Below are positions 685-27,343 of a stretch of 32,000 nucleotides of DNA, one piece after another. The translations under genes were made by a program, and so were the position numbers. The notes beneath the pieces are model-generated. The model did not search any database and was not told the origin of the DNA. It was given only the letters and a program-made list of their open reading frames with translations. Within the stretch, counting starts at the first letter, position 1. Every line of letters starts with the position of its first letter. Source of the DNA: Ignisphaera aggregans DSM 17230 (GTDB taxonomy: Archaea; Thermoproteota; Thermoprotei_A; Sulfolobales; Ignisphaeraceae); NCBI GenBank assembly GCA_000145985.1, contig CP002098.1:1241123-1273122 (forward strand), read 5' to 3'.

Positions 685-1416
685 CTAGCTGAGAATCCTT
701 GAGAAATCAGGTTTATAGTAATCTCCCGTTGCTTTCAGAACCCATATGTTGTGTTTCTCTGCTTTTTCTACTAGTTCTGGTAGTGCTAGGCTTGTGTATA
801 TGACTAGAATTGTTTTTTGTCTCAATTTATCTGGATATCTCTTCCTAAGATCCTTAACCTTGTCTAGAAGTTCTTCGAGGATATTTGCACTTGCCCTAAC
901 ACTTGCTTCTCCAACAATGCATATATCGTCTCTACATCCATAGATATTGATCTCCATATCGGGTAGATGGAGAGATTTCAACTCTATATCTATACCAAGC
1001 TCATTCCTAAGCCTATACCTAATAATAGACCTAGCCTCCTCCTCAATATCCAAGGTAAGCTTCTCCAAAGTCCTCTCAACCCTACCCAACCTAGCATTCA
1101 TATTATCCAGCCTCTCCTCAACAGCCTCAAACCTTTTATCTATCTCCTCAAACCTCTTCTCAAATAACTGGATAGCTCTATTGAAATCCTCTCTAAGCTT
1201 GGCCAACTCTATATCATGTCTTTCGAATCCTCTATTCATATCCTCTCTTAATCTTGCAATTTCCTCCCATATCCTCTTAAGCTCCTCCTCATGTCTATCA
1301 AGTCTCTTGAGAATCTCTCCCAAACCTATAAGACCAGCTACAGCATATCGAAACTCTATATCCTCCTCCAAAAGCTTCAACAACCTTGCCCTAAGCTCAG
1401 CTGTCTCTATAGACAA
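685..1416 (-). CDS. coiled-coil protein with a C-terminal restriction-endonuclease-like (PD-(D/E)xK-type) domain; resembles the archaeal DUF3782-type family from memory
   Basis: 243-aa ORF. The N-terminal ~130 aa are heptad-like and E/R/L-rich (EELKRIWEEIARLREDMNRGFERHDIELAKLREDFNR...). The C-terminal block DMEINIYGCRDDICIVGEASVRA...ILVIYTS looks like a nuclease-fold core. The three + strand ORFs over it are low-complexity shadows. Confidence 0.6.
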   Translation of the reverse strand: MSIETAELRARLLKLLEEDIEFRYAVAGLIGLGEILKRLDRHEEELKRIWEEIARLREDMNRGFERHDIELAKLREDFNRAIQLFEKRFEEIDKRFEAVEERLDNMNARLGRVERTLEKLTLDIEEEARSIIRYRLRNELGIDIELKSLHLPDMEINIYGCRDDICIVGEASVRASANILEELLDKVKDLRKRYPDKLRQKTILVIYTSLALPELVEKAEKHNIWVLKATGDYYKPDFSRILS

Positions 1417-1483
1417 TGTTACTCAACCTCTAAGAAAAGATAAGCTAGAAATGCTTAATAAACATTCTTGTCTACAACAATAA

Positions 1484-1840
1484 TAGAATCTATCCATATA
1501 AACAAGACATAGTGCAACATACTATTCTATTAAAAGACTCTACACCTCCTGCAAAACCTCTAAAGAAGGGATTTCTAGAATATGAAAAGAATGGAAAGAG
1601 TTATGAATATACACCAACAAACCTGGCAAAAATGTTGCTATAACAATCAACTCTTTTCTCATTAGAACACCCATGTTATGGTTATTGTGTCTTCACAATT
1701 AGTACTGTTTCATTATTTCTATTCTTTTTCATTAGAACATCATTGTTATCGCTAATCAATGACTCTACGAATGTTCCAATAATATCCATTGGTAATGAAA
1801 TCATATAGACTTATAAACAGATATATAAACATAATACTCG
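1484..1840 (+). promoter_or_regulatory. putative CRISPR leader with a TATA-like box just upstream of repeat 1
   Basis: AT-rich, ORF-free stretch directly 5' of the first repeat. TTATAAACAGATATATAAAC lies at 1811-1830, 11 nt before repeat 1. A direct-repeat motif recurs about every 70 nt (1651-1681, 1721-1751, weaker at 1801). Degenerate repeats lie at the opposite end of the array. Confidence 0.5.
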
Positions 1841-4142
1841 GAAACTCCCAAAAGGGAGTAGAAAGGACTTTTGCCATGATTTTCCAGATTTTTGCGATAG
1901 AGATAGAAACTCCCAAAAGGGAGTAGAAAGATGGCTGAAAACGCATCGATTAACGCTGCAAGTGATGATACAGAAACTCCCAAAAGGGAGTAGAAAGATC
2001 CCGCAGTATACTACAGTAGTTTGTCAGCATGGGTATATGGATACCTAATGAAACTCCCAAAAGGGAGTAGAAAGGTCAAGATAATGCCGAAGATTAGGAA
2101 GACGAGGAAGCTCTACAGAAACTCCCAAAAGGGAGTAGAAAGAATGACGTTTAAGTATCCAAGCTTTGATAAACTCTGGCAGTTCTGAAACTCCCAAAAG
2201 GGAGTAGAAAGTCTTCTTATACTGATCTAGATACATCATAAGTATTGTCTCTAGCGAAACTCCCAAAAGGGAGTAGAAAGACCTCTAACACTCTTCCACC
2301 TATCAACCCATGTCTCTCAAGAGGAAACTCCCAAAAGGGAGTAGAAAGACTGAAATATTGTATACAATATGAATAGCCATATATACAATGCAACTGTAGC
2401 CAGAAACTCCCAAAAGGGAGTAGAAAGATACGATCCTGACTGTGTGGATCTAGATTGCTACTACGAGGAAACTCCCAAAAGGGAGTAGAAAGATCACAGA
2501 CGCAATGTCTATCGCATAATCTTCGCAGAGTCCTGCAGAAACTCCCAAAAGGGAGTAGAAAGTATCTATCACATAAAGCCTTGAGGCTACCAGCGCTTGT
2601 AGCGAAGTGAAACTCCCAAAAGGGAGTAGAAAGTATACAACTCTGTGTTTAGTGCTACATTTGATATTGCTGTTGTGAAACTCCCAAAAGGGAGTAGAAA
2701 GATGTTATACTTTGTGAAATAGTGTCTCTTCCCCCACTTTGGAGGAAGACCTGGAAACTCCCAAAAGGGAGTAGAAAGTAGGAGGAGGGAACATGACTAC
2801 TGTATTAAGATCAACGACGCTGTCTACGGAAACTCCCAAAAGGGAGTAGAAAGAGAGGACTCGGTCTATGAAGATCGCTGAGTGGAATTCTCCCTTCTTA
2901 AGAAACTCCCAAAAGGGAGTAGAAAGGTGAATATCACTAGGATTGAATCGCTCGACACGTGGCTCTGGATAGTCAGGAAACTCCCAAAAGGGAGTAGAAA
3001 GCTTTCTCACAGCTGTGATCATGGTGAGTATGGATTGTGGTATATAATCTGAAACTCCCAAAAGGGAGTAGAAAGCATCTTAGAGCTGCTGCTATTCTAG
3101 CCATTATGTCTACTCCAGCCTTGAAACTCCCAAAAGGGAGTAGAAAGGTTGAAAGAGATAGACAGAACTCATGATACGGCATACTATGCGAAACTCCCAA
3201 AAGGGAGTAGAAAGGTATAGTCCATGACATTCTTACAATTAGATCAGTATTTGTCGGTAGCCGAAACTCCCAAAAGGGAGTAGAAAGCTTAAAGAAATAC
3301 ATCTTCACATCACTTGCAAAAGCCTCTGGAGACCTTATGAAACTCCCAAAAGGGAGTAGAAAGGTCTGGGGAAATATAGCGTATTATATCAGGAAGCTTG
3401 GGATGAAACTCCCAAAAGGGAGTAGAAAGTTGTGATGTTCTTTAGATGTGATACGAACTGCTTTGTTGTTAGAGAGAAGGAAACTCCCAAAAGGGAGTAG
3501 AAAGATATATATTATATTAGGTAGAGAGAATAGTTTCTGTCGGGTCTGAAACTCCCAAAAGGGAGTAGAAAGTTATTGGACTTATATATACTGGAAAAGC
3601 ATCTTTCTCATAATCAAACATGAAACTCCCAAAAGGGAGTAGAAAGAGAGAACCATGTTGAAAGCTCCTGCATTCTAGCATATACCCATCCCTGGAAACT
3701 CCCAAAAGGGAGTAGAAAGCTTTCTCACAGCTGTGAGCATGGATTGTGGTATGTATTCCTGTGGGAAACTCCCAAAAGGGAGTAGAAAGAGATAGCAAAG
3801 TTTAAACTGATAAACATGATTATTGGAGCATGAAACTCCCAAAAGGGAGTAGAAAGCTTCCTTAGCATCTTTGTATTCCATAACATCTTTCAAAGCATTG
3901 AAACTCCCAAAAGGGAGTAGAAAGATCCCTATGATAGCCATTGCAATCAACAGCCATTCCAATCCTATACCACGAAACTCCCAAAAGGGAGTAGAAAGAT
4001 AAATCTATCTAGCCTAATTCCCGACTTATCTGACATTCTAGGAAAGAAACTCCCAAAAGGGAGTAGAAAGTCTACAGAACACTATGTATTAGTGCCAATA
4101 GAAACCTTGGTAGATGTGAAACTCCCAAAAGGGAGTAGAAAG
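1841..4142 (+). CRISPR. CRISPR array: 33 x 25-bp repeat GAAACTCCCAAAAGGGAGTAGAAAG, 32 unique spacers of 40-54 bp
   Basis: Repeats were counted by hand, starting at 1841, 1906, 1973, 2050, 2118 ... 3974, 4046, 4118, and every copy checked is identical. The repeat contains a perfect 6-bp palindrome ACTCCC-AAAA-GGGAGT. The + orientation is inferred from the 3' ...AGAAAG end, which resembles the Sulfolobus repeat GATTAATCCCAAAAGGAATTGAAAG recalled from memory, and from the position of the leader and degenerate repeats. Confidence 0.97.
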
Positions 4143-4515
4143 ACTTATATTATGTAGGTAAGTAATCATGAGTTTGTGCGGTTCCACTGTACTACTACAT
4201 TGTTACCTTCGAGTGTTTGAATCCGCTAGCCCCAGACTGGGTACTCGTAGGATATTGTTGCGGTATTTTTGTATTTGACAGTAGCGTCATGCGTAGCGGC
4301 ATGTGTATTTACTGGAGCAGGTGGATGTATATATTGGCATACTCGGGGGTGCTGCCAGTATATTGGGATCGCTAAATGCTTGTTATCAGAACTGTCCAGT
4401 AATGGATGTTTGTTTAAAAGTATTGTGGATATTTGGGTGGATAGCTATAGCATGCGCCAGGCTCTGGTAAAATTTAAAACCTTTTTAATTTAAATTTTTA
4501 GAAGGGTGAGATGAT

Positions 4516-4839
4516 ATGACTCTGCTCGGGGATCTACTTGCACAGAGGCAGATATGGGCAATTGTGGGTCTGACGATTGGTACTGCTAGTCTCCTATTCC
4601 TGATCTTATTCAGATCCCGGATAATAGTTCAGAACCGGCCAGGATCGAAGACGGCCTGGATCCTGCTGATCGAAATGGCGGTTTATAACATAGTGCTGGG
4701 CGCTTTGCACGGTCTCTCTCTGTACGGAGTCAACACGTGGATTGCATGGGGTTTGGCTGGATGGCTTTTCTTCTCTGCTATGTTGGCAACTATTATTGTC
4801 CTCTTGATTAATATATCAAGGGGCTCAAAGCATGGCTAA
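4516..4839 (+). CDS. small integral membrane protein (about 3 TM helices), unknown function
   Basis: 107-aa ORF with ATG preceded by GGGTGAGATGAT (SD-like GGTGA). Hydrophobic segments: IWAIVGLTIGTASLLFLILF, AWILLIEMAVYNIVLGALHGL, IAWGLAGWLFFSAMLATIIVLLI. G+C is higher than in the flanking genes. Confidence 0.6.
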   Translation: MTLLGDLLAQRQIWAIVGLTIGTASLLFLILFRSRIIVQNRPGSKTAWILLIEMAVYNIVLGALHGLSLYGVNTWIAWGLAGWLFFSAMLATIIVLLINISRGSKHG

Positions 4840-5113
4840 AGGATCCGCAATGCAGCAGTATTTCCCCATACCGCATCTCTCAGCTTTTACAATCGGATTT
4901 GTATACTTCTTCGTCTCAGTGAAAACAATTGAAATTTCTACAATTGACAATAGATTACTACTGTCACTTTTAAATTTCGTATTAATATCAATCCTAATTA
5001 TAATGCTAAGAAGATTCGGAAAGAATATTAGAGATGGTCTAATTATCACAGCATCACTCTTATCTGGCATCCTATTGGGATACCTTATATCTTCAGCTTT
5101 TTTGTGGAGATGA
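4832..5113 (+). CDS. small integral membrane protein (about 3 TM helices), unknown function
   Basis: 93-aa ORF whose ATG overlaps the stop of the upstream gene (ATGGCTAA, 8-nt overlap), implying translational coupling. Hydrophobic segments: LSAFTIGFVYFFVSV, LLLSLLNFVLISILIIML, LIITASLLSGILLGYLISSAFL. Confidence 0.55.
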   Translation: MAKGSAMQQYFPIPHLSAFTIGFVYFFVSVKTIEISTIDNRLLLSLLNFVLISILIIMLRRFGKNIRDGLIITASLLSGILLGYLISSAFLWR

Positions 5114-5128
5114 GATGTGTGCTACACA

Positions 5129-5152
5129 GAAACTTCCAAAAGGAGTAGAAAG
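5129..5152 (+). repeat. degenerate orphan CRISPR repeat (GAAACTTCCAAAAGGAGTAGAAAG)
   Basis: It differs from the array repeat by one C>T substitution and loss of one G. Both changes fall in the hairpin arms. It lies 986 bp after the last perfect repeat. Confidence 0.85.
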
Positions 5153-5392
5153 ACTTCCTAAGTGAGGTGTATCTGTATGGAGACCAAGACAAAGGGTGTA
5201 GAGGATCGGAGGCTTCAAGTGGAGCTAGGATATGTGAATACCATAGCTAGTAATGTTTCTCTCGCAAGGTAGTATCTATGAGAGTTTGGGAGGGGGAGAT
5301 TAATACCCAGAAAGAGCCTGTATTTCAAAGGAAATTTTTGGAAGAAAAATCTCGATGTTATTCTACCAGTTCTGCTCACTATTGTCGCTGCT

Positions 5393-6052
5393 GTGGGAGT
5401 ATGGATTTCCGAGCCAATCTATGTAAGAAATCATCTCCTTGGAAATTTGATCACTCATATGATCCTAGTAGTACTTGCTTTTTTAGGGACAACTGCCTCC
5501 AACCTTAGTTTAGTTGAAACCGGCATTATTTCACCTAATCCACGGTATAGCCTCTACTGGGGCCTCTATCTTTCGATGAGTGTATGTGTCCCTGCTCTCG
5601 TCTTTATTGGTACTCTTAATACATTGGGGTTAGTCTCGCTTGAGACCAGTAGACTCAGCATATATACACTTACTCGTCCCGAAGTCCTAGTTATTAATTT
5701 TGTGTTTAATGGTCTCTGCGAAGAGCTTTTCTTCAGGGGATATGTACAAGGATCTCTAAACAGATCAATAGGTCATGAGGCATCTCCTATAGTAAGCGGC
5801 ATAATCTTTGGGGCTATACATTTGAATAACTACGTCAATCCCTTTACTGGAAAATATAGCCTTGATACTGGTGCTGTGGTATGGGTGTTATTATGCTGTT
5901 TTATAGGTATATACCTCGGGTTATTGCGTAGAAAGTGTGGCGATATCTATTGTCCTACATTATTTCACGGGTCACTAGATTATACAATGGATGTTATGAG
6001 CATACTTAAATGTCCATCGAATATTTTAAACATGGCTATGGGTGTTGGCTGA
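5393..6052 (+). CDS. CPBP family (CAAX/Abi-type) intramembrane glutamic endopeptidase; N-terminus probably disrupted (possible pseudogene 5278-6052)
   Basis: Motifs are CEELFFRGY (EExxxR), FGAIHL (FxxxH) and LFHGSLD (HxxxD/N), in a multi-TM protein. The listed GTG start at 5393 cuts a predicted TM helix (NLDVILPVLLTIVAAVGVW). The frame is open back to 5282 with no ATG/GTG/TTG, and an ATG at 5278 sits in the adjacent frame. Confidence 0.8.
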   Translation: MGVWISEPIYVRNHLLGNLITHMILVVLAFLGTTASNLSLVETGIISPNPRYSLYWGLYLSMSVCVPALVFIGTLNTLGLVSLETSRLSIYTLTRPEVLVINFVFNGLCEELFFRGYVQGSLNRSIGHEASPIVSGIIFGAIHLNNYVNPFTGKYSLDTGAVVWVLLCCFIGIYLGLLRRKCGDIYCPTLFHGSLDYTMDVMSILKCPSNILNMAMGVG

Positions 6053-6509
6053 ATTATTTTCCTAGCTATAACCTACAGACAGTTTAAAAACTCCAAGGTA
6101 TATCATTAAAATTCGCATATAGGTCATGATAAGCCTATCGTCCTGATTATGAGGATATTCTCCGGCACAAAGCAATAAAAATGTCTTTGGAAGACCTATC
6201 ACCTCGCTACAACACTATATGTCAACTATAATGTCAGTTATTCATCCTCTATAAGGCTTGAGTGGATCAATGTGCTGCCAAGACTTCGCAATAAGCCTTA
6301 GTGGTTTTCTCGTCCTTCTATTTCCAGCTAAGGTTTTTCACCACTTCATCTAACGTACTCCACTCTCTCTAGATCTCTAAATTCACGGCCTACTGCTAGA
6401 AATTATGTATTGAGATGCTTCGCAAACATGTAGACTAGGATGTCTATGATGGATAAGTCACTGTCATGCTTTCTTCAGCTCAAGGCGGTAGTCGAGAGGC
6501 TCTGGCTGA

Positions 6510-6535
6510 GAAACTCCCAAAATTGAGTAAGAGAG
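6510..6535 (+). repeat. strongly degenerate CRISPR repeat remnant (GAAACTCCCAAAATTGAGTAAGAGAG)
   Basis: The first 13 nt are identical to the repeat. GGG>TTG destroys the hairpin, and the 3' end differs by one insertion and one substitution. It lies 1357 bp after the previous remnant, at the point where G+C falls back to the window norm. Confidence 0.6.
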
Positions 6536-6566
6536 GTGTTGTGTTGAGGGCTTTTTTGAGATCTCT

Positions 6567-6586
6567 TTGTTCAAGTTTCTGAACAA
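6567..6586. promoter_or_regulatory. inverted repeat TTGTTCA-N6-TGAACAA upstream of the 6652 gene
   Basis: The 7-bp arms are perfectly complementary. GTTCAAG recurs at 6591-6597. The element sits about 65-85 nt upstream of the GTG start at 6652. Confidence 0.25.
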
Positions 6587-6651
6587 ATATGTTCAAGCAC
6601 TAGGTTTTTAGTTCTTAAAAGCATATAGATGTTATCTAGAGGTGTGAAAAG

Positions 6652-7518
6652 GTGGAATGGATATACATAGCTCTACTTGTTATATTTATTGGTATAGTTC
6701 TAGGTCTTGTTATTGCTAATGAGCTAAATATTTTGAGGCTCTTTGACATAGGTATTAATGTTTATGTGCCAGAGGCGGAGGGTGTTATAGAGATAAAACT
6801 GGATATTAGAAATGCTTCAGGATCTGTATTATATCCCAATATAACTTCGCTGTATCTAGATAGAGATTCTAGAATACAGTTCAAGTTGTTGTCAGCTGAG
6901 GTAGAAGGAGATGTTAGGATAGCTCTAAGTGGAAGAGCAACTCTTGTTGGTGTTAATGGAGATAGATACTCAGTGTCTATGCCATGTCTATATACAAACA
7001 TTGAATGTTTTAGAATATTAACATTGATACCGGGTTACGATACCCCTATGCCACTGCCTAGAGATAGATACTCAGTATCACTAGAACTCTCTTGGTATGG
7101 AGCTTCAGGTGTAGGGAAAATAAGATTGAAGCTAGGTATAGTAAAAGAATCAGATATTGTGATAACCAAGATTGGTACAAAGCCGGAGAACACCACTGGT
7201 TGGATAACATTTGAGGGTTCGACAAGAACATATGCTGCATTGATAGAGCCTAGAGCTACTAGAGTTGGAGATAATACCTATGCAGTACATGTATGGATCT
7301 GGATATTTACACCAATGAATAATACAGATATACAAAGCGTTGATATAGCTATCGAAGATTATAGCGGTAGACAACTCTATAGCACAATGGTTAATCTAGA
7401 TAGGGTAGAGATCTATAGAGAAGCCTTAGTAAGAATTACATTGCCACAAGGTAGATATGTTGTTAAGATTGCTATAAATCCCGATATAGTTCTACAGACA
7501 AAGCTATCCATAGAATAG
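6652..7518 (+). CDS. membrane-anchored hypothetical protein (N-terminal TM helix, beta-rich extracellular part, internal repeat)
   Basis: 288-aa ORF with a GTG start preceded by GAGGTGTGAAAAG. N-terminal helix is WIYIALLVIFIGIVLGLVIA. The DRYSVS motif occurs twice, and a 16-nt perfect DNA repeat sits at 6959-6974 and 7061-7076. Confidence 0.6.
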   Translation: MEWIYIALLVIFIGIVLGLVIANELNILRLFDIGINVYVPEAEGVIEIKLDIRNASGSVLYPNITSLYLDRDSRIQFKLLSAEVEGDVRIALSGRATLVGVNGDRYSVSMPCLYTNIECFRILTLIPGYDTPMPLPRDRYSVSLELSWYGASGVGKIRLKLGIVKESDIVITKIGTKPENTTGWITFEGSTRTYAALIEPRATRVGDNTYAVHVWIWIFTPMNNTDIQSVDIAIEDYSGRQLYSTMVNLDRVEIYREALVRITLPQGRYVVKIAINPDIVLQTKLSIE

Positions 7519-9321: not shown

Positions 9322-9423
9322 AGTAAACACAACAATATGTAGTATATTCCACAATATATACCTTATGTTTATAACATAATAGGGTTATAAAGTTGATGCG
9401 CAGAGAATCTGTAGAGTGGAATT

Positions 9424-10410
9424 ATGTCTAGATTCAGACTCGATATACATAAACCAATTAAGGATAGGTTTGAGGCTATAGTTATTGGTGCAGGTCCTGC
9501 AGGTCTTACAGCAGCTCTCTATCTAGCTAGATACGGTGTTGATGTATGTATAGTATCTAAAGATCTTGGAGGTAATATGGCTATAGCTCCACTCGTTGAT
9601 GATTATCCAGGTATTAGGAATATTAAGGGCTCTGAATTGACAAAGCTTTTTGCTGAACATGTTAAGAGCTATAATGTTCCACTCTATATAGGTACAAAGG
9701 TTATAAGTATTGCTAGAGAAGATAATATGTTTCGTATAACAACTGAAGATAATAGAAATCTCTATTCATATGCTATAGTTATAGCCATTGGATTAAGGAA
9801 TAAGAGACTTGGTGTTCCAGGTGAGGAGAAGTTTATCGGTAGAGGGGTTTCATATTGCGCTGTCTGTGATGGACCTATGTTTAGTGGTAGGGATGTAGCT
9901 GTTGTTGGTGGAGGTAATTCGGCTTTACTATCAGCTATATATCTATCATCTATAGCTAAGAAGGTATATCTAATCCATAGGAGGGATACATTTAGAGCAT
10001 TTGATATATATGTAAAACAAGTCAAATCATCTAGAAACATAGAGTTATTGCTTAACCATATAGTTACTGAGATTATAGGTGATGATAAGGTGAGAGCTAT
10101 TAGGGTAAAGAATACTGTATCTAGTGAGGAGAGGGAAATAGATGTAGATGGGATATTCATAGAGATAGGCTTTGAAACAGATAGAGAATTTTTAGAGTCT
10201 ATAGGACTGAAATTAGATGAGGATGGAAGAATAGTAGTTGGACCAGATGGTAGAACCAATATACCTGGAATATATGCCTGTGGCTCTGTAACAGGAGGGC
10301 CCTATAGATACAAATTTGATCAGATAATAACAGCTGCTGCAGAGGGAGCTATAGTTGCTGATGCTGTATACAAATATCTCATCGGGTTAAAATCTAGGGG
10401 AGGACTATAG
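9424..10410 (+). CDS. trxB: thioredoxin-disulfide reductase (low-Mr TrxR family flavoprotein)
   Basis: GAGPAGLTAALYLAR (FAD), redox-active CAVCDG, GGGNSA plus HRRDTFRA (NADPH site), and a C-terminal GD-type FAD motif (GIYACGSV). Confidence 0.9.
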   Translation: MSRFRLDIHKPIKDRFEAIVIGAGPAGLTAALYLARYGVDVCIVSKDLGGNMAIAPLVDDYPGIRNIKGSELTKLFAEHVKSYNVPLYIGTKVISIAREDNMFRITTEDNRNLYSYAIVIAIGLRNKRLGVPGEEKFIGRGVSYCAVCDGPMFSGRDVAVVGGGNSALLSAIYLSSIAKKVYLIHRRDTFRAFDIYVKQVKSSRNIELLLNHIVTEIIGDDKVRAIRVKNTVSSEEREIDVDGIFIEIGFETDREFLESIGLKLDEDGRIVVGPDGRTNIPGIYACGSVTGGPYRYKFDQIITAAAEGAIVADAVYKYLIGLKSRGGL

Positions 10411-19778: not shown

Positions 19779-21316
19779 CTTTTTATATATACATCGTATA
19801 GCTGTGTATATCCAAGAACAAATCTTAGTCCTTGAACCCTTGGGTTAACACCATAGATAAAATCTTCGAGGTATAGCCATATAGCTGGACAATCCCTCCA
19901 CAAAATCTCTTGTGCCTCTCTAAGAAGTTCAGCTCTAACAGTAGCATCACTCTCTAGAGCTGCTTTATCTAGAAGTTCATCGTATTTGGGATTACTATAG
20001 TTTGGACCATTTAGAGAAGAACCTGTTCTCCAATAGGATAACCCATAGTATACAGATGATGGTGATGGCCCATAGAGAGCAAGGTCAAAGTCATGTTTAT
20101 TGAATACCATGTCCAGAAAGGTGTTGTGGTCCATGGTAACAATCTTAACATCTATACCTATGTCTCTAAGATAGCTTTGTACAGCTTCAGCAACTGTAAT
20201 ATCCTTAGCACTTCTAGTTGATACAAGTAGTGTCAAAGTTCTATTCAATCTAAATCCTGCCTCCTCCAACAGCTTTCTTGCCTTTTCAGGATCATAGCTA
20301 TAGGGATTCATAGCAACTACATCTGGGGATAGAGGTGGTATAACCCATTGAGCAACCCTAGCATATCCACCAAATATATTTTTGACTATAGCTTCCCTAT
20401 CTATGGCATAGTTCATAGCCATTCTAACTCTAGGATCTGGAATCCTATCATTATTTATAGCAACAATCACAAGCCTTGTACCTGAAACATTAACTATTCT
20501 AAAACCTCTTGAAACAACATCTTTAGCATTATCTGGCGAAAGTCCTACAGCAATATCTATCTCATTGTTAAAGAGTGCAGCTAATCTAGCTGTAGAATCT
20601 TTCAAAACTTTGTATATAACAGTGCTTATCCTTGGTCTCCCTCCCCAATAGCCATCAAAGCTTTTTAGAACTATTGATGAGCCAGGCTCATAGCTTACAA
20701 ATCTATATGGTCCTGTACCAACAACATCTGATACACTTTCTATTGGTTTATCCATATACTTTTCAGCTATTTCCCTAGGCATTATAGATATAGATAGATG
20801 TGCAAGATGCTCAGGTAGAAATGCAAATGGCTTTCTCAGTATAATCATAAATGTTGTTGTGTTTACAACCTCTATTCTATCTATGATAGGAGTACCATTG
20901 GCATCCTTAAGAAGTATACTACCTATATACCCTTTCACAGCTCTCTCAATACTTGCTTTTACATCCCATGCATCAAGAGGTTTACCATTGTGAAACCTTA
21001 TATTGTCTCTAAGGGCAAATAGATATGTTGTCGAATTTATCTGTTGCCAATATCTTATAAGCCAAGGCTTATAGACAATTCTCCCAGATTCATCTGTATC
21101 TATCTTGAATAGAGCTTCATATACCTTTCCAAGAACCTCAAAATCTGCTACAGCTCTAGCAAAATGTATATCTATTGTTGATATATCTGTGGATAGCCCT
21201 ATCCTCAGAGTTTGCTCCTCTGTACCTCGTGATAGTGAGATGTATAGATATCCTATTGTTGCTAGGGCTATGGCTAACACTATAGCTATTGTTACAACAA
21301 TGAGTCTTCTGCTCAT
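19775..21316 (-). CDS. ABC transporter substrate-binding protein, family 5 (peptide/nickel/oligosaccharide type)
   Basis: 513 aa with an N-terminal membrane anchor (RRLIVVTIAIVLAIALATIGYLY). Family-5-like segments: IRFHNGKPLDAWDVKASIER, GTGPYRFVSYEPGSSIVLKSFDGYWGG. The start region shows a 4-nt overlap with the permease gene. Confidence 0.88.
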   Translation of the reverse strand: MSRRLIVVTIAIVLAIALATIGYLYISLSRGTEEQTLRIGLSTDISTIDIHFARAVADFEVLGKVYEALFKIDTDESGRIVYKPWLIRYWQQINSTTYLFALRDNIRFHNGKPLDAWDVKASIERAVKGYIGSILLKDANGTPIIDRIEVVNTTTFMIILRKPFAFLPEHLAHLSISIMPREIAEKYMDKPIESVSDVVGTGPYRFVSYEPGSSIVLKSFDGYWGGRPRISTVIYKVLKDSTARLAALFNNEIDIAVGLSPDNAKDVVSRGFRIVNVSGTRLVIVAINNDRIPDPRVRMAMNYAIDREAIVKNIFGGYARVAQWVIPPLSPDVVAMNPYSYDPEKARKLLEEAGFRLNRTLTLLVSTRSAKDITVAEAVQSYLRDIGIDVKIVTMDHNTFLDMVFNKHDFDLALYGPSPSSVYYGLSYWRTGSSLNGPNYSNPKYDELLDKAALESDATVRAELLREAQEILWRDCPAIWLYLEDFIYGVNPRVQGLRFVLGYTQLYDVYIKS

Positions 21317-27178: not shown

Positions 27179-27224
27179 CTAAATCACTTTCTACACCTAC
27201 ATATATAACTACCTATATTAATCA

Positions 27225-27245
27225 TTATATAACTTAGTTATATAA
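27225..27245. promoter_or_regulatory. 21-bp palindrome TTATATAAC-TTA-GTTATATAA in the divergent promoter between two Cys-rich metal-protein genes
   Basis: Perfect 9-bp arms, checked base by base. It lies 47 nt from the TRASH gene start and about 100 nt from the 27344 ATG. Confidence 0.35.
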
Positions 27246-27343
27246 GACATTTTAATTAAAGGAAATCAATGTTTTATCTTAGTAGTGTCACTATCTTAAG
27301 ATATATTAAGCTGTAGATATACAACATATCTTTGGTATTGAAT

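What the first reader, a model, noticed from the sequence alone, without database searches (positions are those of the whole stretch)
4143..6535. Gene-carrying, compositionally foreign DNA sitting between CRISPR repeat copies ('gene-sized spacers')
Seen: the last perfect repeat ends at 4142. A near-perfect copy (1 substitution, 1 deletion) lies at 5129-5152 and a decayed copy at 6510-6535. The two intervals are 986 bp and 1357 bp, against 40-54 bp for real spacers. They contain two membrane-protein genes and a CPBP protease gene respectively. Hand-counted G+C in 60-nt samples inside the segment is 29/60 (4541-4600), 26/60 (5581-5640) and 25/60 (6301-6360). Outside it is 19/60 (9421-9480) and 21/60 (20401-20460). 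The shift begins just after repeat 33 and ends near the last remnant. The mutations in both remnants fall in the hairpin arms. Both 4143 and 5153 begin ACTT. Inference: foreign cargo entered the trailer end of the array at repeat sequences. Possible routes are recombination with a repeat-bearing mobile element or aberrant integration at repeats. Alternatively these are array-linked accessory genes. I know of no described system with repeat-bracketed gene cassettes like this.
Basis: partly seen in the sequence, partly recalled or inferred. Interest (0 to 1): 0.8.

Follow-up and report, generated by a model that had tools for sequence, protein, structure and literature searches.

The report
Gene-sized inserts in CRISPR array tail
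The tail of an archaeal CRISPR array holds two kilobase-sized, partly decayed pieces of horizontally acquired DNA between old repeat copies, and related strains carry a different piece or almost nothing at one of these spots, so the repeats mark places where foreign DNA gets swapped in, not a new defence system.

Summary
Downstream of 33 perfect repeats (1841-4142) lie two repeat remnants (5129-5152 and 6510-6535). Both score far above chance. They enclose 986 bp and 1357 bp of compositionally atypical DNA.

The window is Ignisphaera aggregans DSM 17230. The array is orphan: no cas genes occur in the window.

The gene content needs correcting. Interval 1 holds an intact 107-aa membrane gene and a 93-aa membrane gene. 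Interval 2 holds a CPBP/Rce1-like protease gene with a -1 frameshift and a TGG>TGA stop. It also holds a dead 3' fragment of a vapC (PIN) gene cut off at the second remnant.

Related loci show one site with several alleles:
- A 99%-identical strain has the same tail but shares no spacer.
- A second strain has a different 2-kb block (475-aa gene) in interval 2.
- A third locus has only 35-40 nt there.
- A fourth has leader + one degenerate repeat + an intact CPBP gene.

Both blocks also occur without repeats in other, higher-G+C crenarchaea at 76-84% nucleotide identity. An unrelated array with the same repeat shows the same architecture.

Best reading: this is a decaying trailer end where repeats mark the borders of block exchange of horizontally acquired DNA. 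It is not a functional cassette system. Aberrant Cas1-Cas2 integration of long DNA is not excluded.

The parts
685..1416 (-). Coiled-coil + PD-(D/E)XK-like gene upstream of the leader. Truncated paralogous fragments of this gene lie next to the 107/93 block in related loci.
   Evidence: ORF. Only weak Pfam hits: coiled-coil families and ERCC4. It is 35% identical to the DUF3782/PDDEXK_10 gene that precedes CPBP in Infirmifilum. Fragments 74-80% identical sit in L017 1666-1796, L188 436-664 and L014 6962-7016.
1417..1840 (+). CRISPR leader: A+T-rich and non-coding.
   Evidence: G+C 0.297. It is 99% identical in L016 and 84% identical (1711-1845) in L184 and L185.
1841..4142 (+). Active array: 33 perfect 25-nt repeats and 32 spacers of 40-54 nt.
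   Evidence: Rfam CRISPR-DR17 scores 38.8 bits, just below its gathering score. The repeat hairpin folds at -9.7 kcal/mol. No spacer is shared with L016 or L017.
4118..4146 (+). Last perfect repeat plus ACTT. This is the left copy of a 29/28-nt direct repeat that brackets 4147-5128.
   Evidence: Family D4.
4143..4502 (.). Block A: 360 bp of unknown origin with no convincing gene.
   Evidence: The only homolog is in L016. The start codon of the 74-aa ORF is lost in L016. The 55-aa ORF differs from L016 only by 2 non-synonymous changes. No Pfam or PHROG hits. In L017 a different sequence (68 nt + PDDEXK fragment) takes its place.
4503..5128 (+). Block B: a 107-aa membrane gene (4516-4839), an overlapping 93-aa membrane gene (4832-5113) and a 15-nt tail (5114-5128).
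   Evidence: The 107-aa gene has dN/dS 0.3-0.4. The 93-aa gene is frameshifted in L017 and L014. The block is 76-84% identical to L014 and L015, which are about 52% G+C and carry no repeats. It lies next to remnant 1 in L016, L017 and L188.
5129..5152 (+). Repeat remnant 1 (GAAACTTCCAAAAGGAGTAGAAAG). The 8-nt 3' tag is intact and the hairpin is weakened.
   Evidence: Score 41/50. Fold energy -2.9 kcal/mol. Orthologous copies are identical in L016, GAAACTCCCATAGGGGGTAGAAAG in L017, TAAACTCCCGAAAGGGAGTAGAAAG in L188 and GAAACTCCCAGAAGGGGGGAGGAAG in L184.
5153..5219 (+). A 67-nt segment between remnant 1 and the start of homology to CPBP loci that lack repeats.
   Evidence: Conserved with L184 and L185. 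Absent upstream of CPBP in L011, L012, L013 and L009.
5278..6109 (+). CPBP/Rce1-like intramembrane protease gene, disrupted. There is a -1 frameshift in the A-run 5345-5349 and a TGG>TGA change at 6050-6052.
   Evidence: Pfam Rce1-like, E 1.7e-18. Homologs are 265-276 aa and align to two reading frames of the window. The same lesions occur in 8 independent read assemblies and in L016. NCBIfam gives only weak, far sub-threshold myxosortase-type hits.
6346..6507 (-). Dead 3' fragment of a vapC (PIN-domain) toxin gene. It has 2 internal stops and is cut off at remnant 2.
   Evidence: Translation. The counterpart in L011 hits Pfam PIN. DNA homology to L011 ends at 6506.
6510..6535 (+). Repeat remnant 2: probably the ancestral terminal repeat, degenerate at its 3' end.
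   Evidence: Score 35/50. Its 13-nt 5' half is perfect. The tail TAAGAGAG followed by GTGTTGT is conserved in L188 and, more decayed, in L017.
6536..6651 (+). Conserved trailer flank and upstream region of the 288-aa gene. It contains the palindrome TGTTCAAGTTTCTGAACA (6568-6585).
   Evidence: Conserved in L017 and L188.
6652..7518 (+). 288-aa membrane-anchored protein: the first gene of the conserved chromosomal flank.
   Evidence: It has a 27%-identical homolog 1.9 kb downstream of CPBP in Infirmifilum.

Best explanation
The region 4143-6535 is the old, decaying trailer end of an orphan CRISPR array of Ignisphaera aggregans DSM 17230. Remnant 2 (6510-6535) is the ancestral terminal repeat, degenerate at its 3' end, and it abuts the conserved chromosomal flank. 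Remnant 1 (5129-5152) is the repeat that preceded it.

In one related locus a spacer-sized stretch still separates these two repeats. In this strain that stretch has been replaced by a 1.36-kb piece of horizontally acquired DNA. It carries a CPBP protease gene, now broken, and a truncated vapC gene. A ~1-kb stretch carrying a two-gene membrane module lies between the active array and remnant 1.

I infer that the blocks were placed and exchanged by recombination in which the repeats, plus a few adjacent bases, served as crossover points. The same 25-nt repeat occurs in many arrays, in several Desulfurococcales lineages of the same springs, and on at least one virus-like contig. It therefore provides portable homology.

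Such inserts survive only at the trailer. There they do not interrupt crRNA production, and degenerate repeats no longer delete them efficiently. The cargo has no role in CRISPR function and is decaying.

Shown: the remnants, the alleles, the foreign composition, the cross-lineage relatives and the gene decay. Inferred: the crossover mechanism and the argument for why inserts persist at the trailer.
For: - Remnants are real and orthologous in L016, L017 and L188.
- Interval 2 has three alleles whose differences start at the first base after remnant 1 and end at remnant 2: 1357 bp with CPBP, about 2 kb with a 475-aa gene (L017), and 35-40 nt (L188).
- L184 and L185 carry leader + one degenerate repeat + the same 67 nt + an intact CPBP gene. 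This is the product expected from a crossover at or just upstream of repeats, that is, array collapse (concept in PMC8047081).
- L016 is 99.3-99.4% identical in both flanks and shares 0 of about 30 spacers. The repeats therefore recombine and turn over quickly.
- The blocks look foreign: tetranucleotide distance is 5 sd above background and third-position G+C is high. Block B is 76-84% identical to 52%-G+C contigs without repeats. CPBP is 77-80% identical to Infirmifilum (58% G+C) and other contigs.
- Gene decay: CPBP frameshift plus stop, a vapC fragment with internal stops, a PDDEXK fragment in L017, and the 93-aa gene frameshifted in L017 and L014.
- Remnant 2 has a perfect 5' half and a decayed 3' half, as is typical of terminal repeats.
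- An independent array (L043) has 57 perfect repeats, then 1742 bp with a 337-aa ORF, then a 1-mismatch repeat that truncates another ORF.
- A virus-like contig from the same metagenome ends in two exact repeats.
- There are no transposase or integrase genes and no terminal inverted repeats.
Against: - No donor was found in which the CPBP block or the 475-aa block is flanked by repeats on both sides outside this locus. The origin of the first repeat-block-repeat unit is therefore unexplained.
- 25 nt is short for efficient homologous recombination.
- The block genes have no viral, plasmid or defence hallmarks.
- Whole-unit replacement with exact repeat borders, with genes cut at those borders, is also what integration by the adaptation machinery would give.
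- L184 and L188 are short metagenome contigs with mixed G+C. L184 is confirmed only by one further assembly, L185, and L188 is a single contig.
- No syntenic locus lacking the array was found in more distant relatives.
Confidence: 0.5

Rival explanations
1. Giant spacers. The adaptation machinery (Cas1-Cas2, perhaps without proper Cas4 trimming) or repair of an aborted integration at a repeat border inserted kilobase-long DNA fragments. Each insertion duplicated the repeat. Normal spacer uptake then pushed these units to the trailer.
For: - Blocks are bounded exactly by repeat copies, with no shared spacer remnants between alleles.
- Blocks have arbitrary ends that cut genes: vapC at remnant 2, a PDDEXK fragment 68 nt after the last perfect repeat in L017, and an ORF truncated at the terminal repeat in L043.
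- The 982 bp at 4147-5128 are flanked by a 29/28-nt direct repeat (repeat + ACTT). This looks like a staggered-cut duplication 4 nt longer than the repeat.
- L184 shows that a state with leader + single repeat + CPBP flank exists, into which such an insertion could have gone.
Against: - Spacer length is normally set tightly: 40-54 nt in all 32 spacers here.
- No kb-sized integration by Cas1-Cas2 is known to me.
- The junction of the 107/93 block with remnant 1 also occurs in L188 with no array upstream. A weak repeat-like trace (13/24 matches) follows the block in L014. The block therefore seems an old neighbour of remnant 1 and not a captured fragment.
- The shared ACTT is not reproduced in L017 or L043.
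- No cas genes are nearby.
Confidence: 0.2
2. Two neighbouring arrays plus ordinary illegitimate rearrangement. Interval 1 is the gap between the active array and a dead two-repeat mini-array (remnants 1 and 2). The blocks arrived through unrelated insertions and deletions, and the repeat borders are incidental.
For: - L188 has PDDEXK fragment + 107/93 block + repeat + 35-40 nt + flank, with no array in the 1.4 kb upstream.
- The PDDEXK fragment + 107/93 unit is shared by L014, L017 and L188.
- Multi-copy PDDEXK paralogs flank the leader, the 107/93 block and, in Infirmifilum, CPBP. They offer longer homology than the repeats.
Against: - Three alleles of interval 2 change exactly at the repeat borders.
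- L184 joins the leader directly to remnant 1.
- L043 repeats the architecture. Incidental borders would not recur in this way.
Confidence: 0.2
3. Functional array-linked accessory cassette. The genes are co-transcribed with the pre-crRNA, and the remnants act as Cas6 processing sites or cr-like regulatory RNAs.
For: - All intact ORFs in the blocks (107 aa, 93 aa, CPBP, the 475-aa gene in L017, the 337-aa ORF in L043) point the same way as the array.
- Remnant 1 keeps the GTAGAAAG tag.
- The 107-aa gene is under purifying selection.
Against: - CPBP is broken here, and the other block contents are fragments.
- The hairpin of remnant 1 drops from -9.7 to -2.9 kcal/mol.
- The 48 nt after each repeat copy have no meaningful second match in the window.
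- No cas genes are in the window.
- Block content is not conserved among strains.
- A T-A-rich, TATA-box-like stretch with a GGTGA motif lies just upstream of the 107-aa start codon (my reading), so the gene may have its own promoter.
Confidence: 0.05
4. Remains of a site-specific mobile element that targets CRISPR repeats: an array-targeting transposon, or an integrative element or virus that uses the repeat as its attachment site.
For: - Such elements exist: Tn7-like array-targeting transposons (PMC11837452).
- A virus-like contig with the same repeats exists in the same community.
- A 29-nt direct repeat brackets interval 1.
Against: - There is no transposase, integrase or other mobile-element hallmark in any block.
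- There are no terminal inverted repeats.
- There are no PHROG, phage, plasmid or IMG/VR relatives of the block genes.
- Truncated genes at the borders do not fit a discrete element.
Confidence: 0.07

Closest known systems
Degenerate terminal repeats, with array collapse and repopulation by recombination between repeats (reviewed in PMC8047081)
   Same: Remnant 2 has an intact 5' half and a decayed 3' half next to the flank. L184 is a collapsed state of leader + one repeat. Strains 99% identical in the flanks share no spacer.
   Different: Here the units next to the terminal repeats are 1-2 kb gene-bearing blocks and not spacers. They are allelic among related loci.
Tn7-like transposons that target CRISPR repeats in cyanobacteria (Chacon Machado & Peters 2025, PMC11837452)
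   Same: Gene-carrying foreign DNA sits inside CRISPR arrays at a position defined by the repeats.
   Different: There are no tnsAB, tnsC or tnsD genes and no transposon ends. The inserts replace the whole inter-repeat stretch, whereas those transposons sit at a fixed point within a spacer. The host is archaeal and the contents are fragmentary.
Virus- and plasmid-borne mini-CRISPR arrays and solitary repeat units (PMC6858448, PMC10651486, PMC11656645)
   Same: Mobile DNA can carry host-type repeats that could recombine with host arrays. One virus-like contig from the same metagenome ends in two exact repeats.
   Different: No block gene is related to known viral or plasmid genes. No element carrying these blocks together with repeats was found.
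CRISPR repeat-like regulatory RNAs and mini-arrays, such as CreTA, CreR and cr-like RNAs (bioRxiv 10.1101/2023.03.03.530964)
   Same: Degenerate stand-alone repeats lie outside the main array.
   Different: Those elements flank spacer-sized pseudo-spacers, lie in or beside cas operons, and match a nearby promoter. Here the intervals are 1-1.4 kb, no cas genes are near, and no target was found.
Integron gene-cassette arrays
   Same: Strain-variable, gene-sized units are separated by copies of a short recombination site at one chromosomal locus.
   Different: There is no integrase and no attI or attC structure. The units contain gene fragments and pseudogenes. There is no evidence of site-specific recombination.

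Membership tests
CRISPR array trailer (degenerate terminal repeats) | Copies of the array's own repeat, on the same strand, downstream of the leader-distal end | tested here: met
   Scores are 41 and 35 of 50 against null maxima of 18-28, both on the + strand. The leader (G+C 0.30, conserved) lies on the opposite side.
CRISPR array trailer (degenerate terminal repeats) | Degeneracy concentrated in the 3' part of the terminal repeat | tested here: met
   In remnant 2 the first 13 nt are perfect and all changes lie in the last 13 nt. This pattern is described in PMC8047081.
CRISPR array trailer (degenerate terminal repeats) | Spacer-sized distance (here 40-54 nt) between successive repeats | tested here: not met
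   The distances are 986 and 1357 bp. The related locus L188 has 35-40 nt at the second site.
Canonical Cas1-Cas2 spacer | Unit bounded exactly by repeat copies, with whole-unit differences between lineages | tested here: met
   The alleles of interval 2 differ from the first base after remnant 1 up to remnant 2.
Canonical Cas1-Cas2 spacer | Length fixed by the ruler of the adaptation complex | tested here: not met
   The intervals are 20-30 times longer than the 32 spacers of the array.
Tn7-like array-targeting transposon | TnsA/B, TnsC and TnsD genes, and transposon ends with TnsB-binding repeats | tested here: not met
   Pfam finds only Rce1-like and PIN domains. No inverted repeats lie at the block ends.
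Integrated virus or plasmid recombined through a mini-array | Mobile-element hallmark genes or relatives in virus or plasmid collections | tested here: not met
   No PHROG hits. No blastn match in the phage or plasmid collections. No IMG/VR relatives of the 107-aa or CPBP proteins.
Integrated virus or plasmid recombined through a mini-array | Mobile elements in the same community that carry the same repeat | tested here: inconclusive
   One IMG/VR contig (L187, 7.4 kb, metagenome 3300020567) ends in two exact repeats. It may be a virus-borne mini-array, a provirus next to an array, or a chimeric contig.
cr-like regulatory RNA (CreTA/CreR type) | Degenerate repeats flank a spacer-sized pseudo-spacer, lie in or beside a cas operon, and partially match a nearby promoter | tested here: not met
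   The intervals are kb-sized, no cas genes are in the window, and the 48 nt after each repeat copy have no trans match.
Integron | Tyrosine-recombinase integrase with attI, and attC sites flanking promoterless cassettes | tested here: not met
   No integrase lies within 32 kb. The units hold fragments and pseudogenes.
CPBP / Rce1-like intramembrane glutamic endopeptidase (for the gene at 5278-6109) | Rce1-like domain with EExxxR, FxxxH and HxxxD/N motifs in an intact multi-pass membrane protein | tested here: inconclusive
   The domain is present (E 1.7e-18) and the motifs CEELFFRG, FGAIH and LFHGSLD are retained. However, the reading frame is broken after codon 24, and the last 19 codons are cut off relative to the 265-276-aa homologs.

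The most novel reading that the evidence does not exclude
CRISPR repeats, or the adaptation machinery acting on them, capture kilobase-sized DNA as repeat-bracketed units that behave like spacers. Such units would be inserted at repeat borders, swapped or deleted as whole units, and carried between strains and even genera together with their repeats. Array trailers would then be a previously unrecognised gene-capture and exchange site, integron-like but without an integrase, in hyperthermophilic archaea.
Probability: 0.2. Interest if true: 0.8.

Novelty: new variant of a known kind. Interest (0 to 1): 0.45.

Why it matters
CRISPR arrays are usually described as growing by about 40-nt spacers and shrinking by deletion between repeats. 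This locus shows the same whole-unit behaviour, bounded by repeats, for 1-2 kb gene-bearing DNA. Several alleles occur at one site, including an almost empty one, and a second independent array has the same architecture. Pieces of the trailer, repeats included, also occur in contigs of quite different G+C content.

If general, array trailers would be hot spots where horizontally acquired DNA enters archaeal chromosomes. Orphan degenerate repeats far from arrays would be scars of such events. This matters for annotating arrays, for using trailer spacers as phylogenetic anchors, and for asking whether Cas1-Cas2 can integrate long DNA.

If not general, it remains a clean, well-documented example of trailer decay and array turnover. 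It also corrects the annotation of the 'Abortive infection protein' of I. aggregans, which is a truncated gene.

Tried and rejected
- Syntenic 'empty site' in more distant relatives. The metagenome scan with the 288-aa flank protein found nothing. The scan with the 111-aa rubrerythrin-like neighbour returned 80 loci (at most 86% identity). None of the 31 closest had repeats or synteny.
- Virus or plasmid origin. There were no blastn matches in the phage or plasmid collections, no IMG/VR relatives and no PHROG or PADLOC hits.
- Self-targeting or virus-targeting spacers. None of 444 unique spacers from all arrays with this repeat matches the blocks or the virus-like contig L187 beyond 14-19 nt, with 23 nt at 91% as the longest.
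- Transposon ends. No inverted repeats lie at the block borders.
- A third decayed repeat around 5180-5205, noticed by eye, scores below chance.
- A duplication of the trailer start. The motif TAAGNGAGGTGT occurs after remnant 1 and at remnant 2, but the similarity is not significant (p = 0.06).
- A cr-like RNA target. The 48 nt after each repeat copy have no meaningful second match in the window.
- Homology between the 475-aa gene of L017 and the 492-aa gene next to CPBP in Infirmifilum: none.
- The region upstream of the window could not be fetched, because the 243-aa product is not on record.
- The genome-contig scan listed 80 of 86 stretches. I. aggregans DSM 17230 was not among them, so its other arrays were not examined.


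Full report
**Observation.** The window carries 33 perfect copies of GAAACTCCCAAAAGGGAGTAGAAAG at 1841-4142, with 0 expected by chance. The 32 spacers are 40-54 nt long. Two further copies lie downstream on the same strand:
- 5129-5152, GAAACTTCCAAAAGGAGTAGAAAG (one substitution, one deletion);
- 6510-6535, GAAACTCCCAAAATTGAGTAAGAGAG (first 13 nt perfect, 3' half decayed).

In a semiglobal alignment against the repeat they score 41 and 35 of 50. Twenty Markov-1 simulations of the non-array sequence, both strands, gave maxima of 18-28, and nothing else in the window exceeds 21. The intervals are 986 and 1357 bp, and both begin ACTT.

**Context.** The CPBP product is 100% identical to a protein named 'Abortive infection protein [Ignisphaera aggregans DSM 17230]'. 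Three features make + the transcribed strand and the 4143 side the trailer:
- the repeat ends in GAAAG;
- a 424-bp non-coding stretch of 0.30 G+C lies upstream and is conserved in related loci;
- the degenerate copies lie downstream.

No cas gene occurs in the window. The remaining 25 kb encode ferritin, rubrerythrin-like proteins, 2-oxoacid:ferredoxin oxidoreductase, an ABC transporter, IscS/NifU-like proteins, a P-type ATPase and other housekeeping functions. Rfam recognises only the 33 perfect repeats (CRISPR-DR17, 38.8 bits).

**Anatomy of interval 1.**
- 4143-4502 has no homolog except in one sister strain and no convincing gene.
- 4503-5128 carries a 107-aa gene and an overlapping 93-aa gene for small membrane proteins without family assignment.
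- The 107-aa gene is intact in all five lineages seen, with dN/dS of 0.3-0.4. The 93-aa gene is frameshifted in two of them.

**Anatomy of interval 2.** The 'CPBP protease gene' is disrupted.
- Homologs are 265-276 aa.
- The window matches their N-terminus in one frame from 5278. It then switches frame at the A-run 5345-5349, where it is one base shorter than relatives.
- It carries TGA where relatives have TGG, at 6050-6052, 19 codons before the ancestral stop.
- Eight independent read assemblies and a metagenomic sister strain share these lesions, so they are not sequencing errors.
- Positions 6346-6507 on the minus strand are the last ~54 codons of a vapC (PIN) gene with two internal stops. 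Homology to the full-length counterpart stops at 6506, three bases before remnant 2.

**Composition.**
- G+C of 4143-6509 is 0.406, against 0.357 +/- 0.020 for equal-sized windows elsewhere (maximum 0.400). This alone is a modest shift, and the spacers are themselves 0.39.
- Tetranucleotide usage is clearly atypical. The distance is 0.34 against 0.184 +/- 0.029, and none of 231 background windows reaches it.
- Third-position G+C is 0.55, 0.32 and 0.36 for the three genes, against 0.20-0.29 for housekeeping genes.

**Relatives of the blocks.**
- The CPBP region (5220-6506) is 77% identical at DNA level to a MAG contig (L011). There the gene is followed by vapBC.
- It is 80% identical to Infirmifilum sp. 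NZ (L009, 58% G+C) and 79% identical to L186 (59% G+C). None of these has repeats.
- The 107/93 block is 76-84% identical to L014 and L015 (52% G+C, no repeats). In L014 a fragment of a PD-(D/E)XK gene precedes it.
- Both blocks are therefore shared across lineages of very different base composition, which indicates horizontal transfer.

**The same locus in relatives.**
- *L016* differs at 10 of 1606 positions in the cassette and 6 of 796 in the left flank. It has the identical junctions, remnant 1 and CPBP frameshift, yet shares no spacer with the window (30 repeats).
- *L017* has 23 perfect repeats. They are followed by 68 nt, a PDDEXK fragment and the 107/93 block, and then GAAACTCCCATAGGGGGTAGAAAG. 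A different ~2-kb block with a 475-aa ORF comes next. The flank homologous to 6533 onward follows, preceded by a weak repeat trace (score 15, p about 0.02 at a fixed site).
- *L188* has a PDDEXK fragment and the 107/93 block, then TAAACTCCCGAAAGGGAGTAGAAAG. Only 35-40 nt then separate this repeat from ...TAAGAGAG|GTGTTGT..., which is the tail of remnant 2 plus 60 nt of flank. This is a nearly empty allele of interval 2.
- *L184* is confirmed over 2116 bp by the independent assembly L185. It joins homologs of the window's left flank and leader directly to one degenerate repeat. The 67 nt and an intact 265-aa CPBP gene follow. All of this sits between a GTPase gene and an RtcA gene of higher G+C.
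- The junction of remnant 1 with CPBP is therefore old, about 83% identity between lineages. So is the junction of the 107/93 block with remnant 1. What lies between remnants 1 and 2 is allelic.

**Generality.**
- The same repeat occurs in arrays of many Ignisphaera and Desulfurococcales MAGs.
- One of them, L043, has 57 perfect repeats. A 1742-bp interval follows, with a 337-aa ORF and a short ORF truncated by the next repeat. A 1-mismatch repeat and a chromosomal gene come after that.
- Other arrays end in a degenerate repeat at normal spacing (L019, L058, L079, L087). Two loci have solitary inverted remnants 6-7.5 kb from the nearest array repeat (L089, L097).
- An IMG/VR contig from the same metagenome as L014-L017 and L188 ends in two exact repeats.

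**Interpretation.** The data fit a decaying trailer end. Remnant 2 looks like an ancestral terminal repeat, with its 5' half kept and its 3' half decayed, the pattern reviewed in PMC8047081. Remnant 1 is the repeat before it. Four observations point to repeats as the operative borders:
- alleles of interval 2 differ as whole units from repeat to repeat;
- the leader is joined to remnant 1 in L184;
- spacer turnover is complete between 99%-identical strains;
- 4147-5128 is bracketed by a 29/28-nt direct repeat (repeat + ACTT).

I infer recombination at repeats with repeat-bearing DNA: other arrays, other strains' alleles, or mobile elements. Inserts would survive at the trailer because they cost nothing there. 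The decay of the cargo argues against a function in CRISPR.

This explanation does not account for how the first repeat-block-repeat unit arose. Exact borders and genes cut at the borders are equally what aberrant integration by Cas1-Cas2 or repair of an aborted integration would leave. I rate that rival at about 0.2.

The conserved association of the 107/93 block with remnant 1, also seen in a locus without an upstream array (L188), suggests interval 1 may be a gap between two arrays and not an insert.

**Comparison with known systems.**
- The locus is not an array-targeting Tn7-like transposon (PMC11837452). It has no Tns genes and no transposon ends.
- It is not a cr-like regulatory mini-array. 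The intervals are kb-sized, no cas genes are present and no target was found.
- It is not an integron, as no integrase is present.
- It is not demonstrably a remnant of a virus or plasmid.
- It is best filed as a new variant of known array dynamics (terminal-repeat decay, recombination between repeats, array collapse and repopulation), extended to gene-sized units.

**Caveats.**
- L184, L185 and L188 are short metagenome contigs with mixed G+C.
- No syntenic locus lacking the array was found in more distant relatives.
- The other arrays of I. aggregans and the region upstream of the window were not examined.
- Compositional tests used only this 32-kb window.

Noticed in passing
window 1841-4142 vs L016 797-2893: Two strains that are 99.3-99.4% identical in both flanks of the array share none of their 32 and 29 spacers, not even at the trailer end. 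This points to array collapse and repopulation, or to wholesale array replacement.
   Followed up: partly
window 3002-3050 and 3720-3764: Two spacers of the same array derive from the same protospacer region. Both start CTTTCTCACAGCT and share GTGAxCATGGATTGTGGTAT, and the alignment needs a 9-nt gap. They look like two acquisitions from variant invaders.
   Followed up: partly
L187 1-95 (IMG/VR UViG_3300020567_000043): A 7.4-kb predicted viral contig ends in two exact copies of this CRISPR repeat separated by a 44-nt spacer. It encodes two paralogous ~120-aa proteins, a 346-aa protein that looks like a glycosyltransferase by eye (no domain scan run) and a large repetitive protein. It may be a virus-borne mini-array, a provirus next to an array, or a chimeric contig.
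   Followed up: partly
L043 4436-6227 (JAWCDI010000047, binned as Aenigmatarchaeota): An independent array with the same repeat has a 1742-bp gene-bearing interval between its last perfect repeat and a 1-mismatch terminal repeat. A short ORF (start 6115) runs into and is cut by that repeat. The Aenigmatarchaeota binning looks doubtful for a repeat typical of Desulfurococcales.
   Followed up: partly
L184 881-2479 / L185: An island of 0.36-0.45 G+C sits between a NOG1-type GTPase gene (0.46 G+C) and an RtcA gene (0.53 G+C). It comprises an Ignisphaera-like left flank, the CRISPR leader, one degenerate repeat and an intact CPBP gene. A CRISPR leader and trailer fragment therefore seems to have moved between organisms.
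   Followed up: partly
window 6652-7518 and L009 12716-13618: The 288-aa flank protein has a 27%-identical homolog (E 7e-23) 1.9 kb downstream of the CPBP gene in Infirmifilum sp. NZ. CPBP itself is 77% identical between the two organisms. This could be a conserved protease-substrate neighbourhood with very unequal divergence, or a coincidence.
   Followed up: partly
window 6568-6585: A perfect palindrome, TGTTCAAGTTTCTGAACA, lies upstream of the 288-aa gene. It is conserved in L017 and largely in L188, and is a likely regulator-binding site.
   Followed up: no
window 5220-5270; L011 9942-9990 and 8206-8254: A conserved ~50-nt element lies directly upstream of the CPBP start codon. It is ~120 nt long in L011, where a second copy lies 1.7 kb upstream. 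In the window it is truncated on its 5' side.
   Followed up: partly
window 5459-6052 (GenBank protein P0001, 197 aa): The public annotation 'Abortive infection protein' of I. aggregans is an internal-start call on a frameshifted and prematurely terminated CPBP gene.
   Followed up: yes
L097 6382-6406 and L089 7755-7779: Solitary degenerate copies of the repeat lie in inverted orientation 6-7.5 kb from the nearest array repeat in two other MAGs. They may be scars of former arrays or of inversions.
   Followed up: no
window 27202-27251: A 25-nt tandem repeat of 2 copies at 76% identity (TATATAACTACCTATATAAAACAT) lies in an A+T-rich intergenic region.
   Followed up: no
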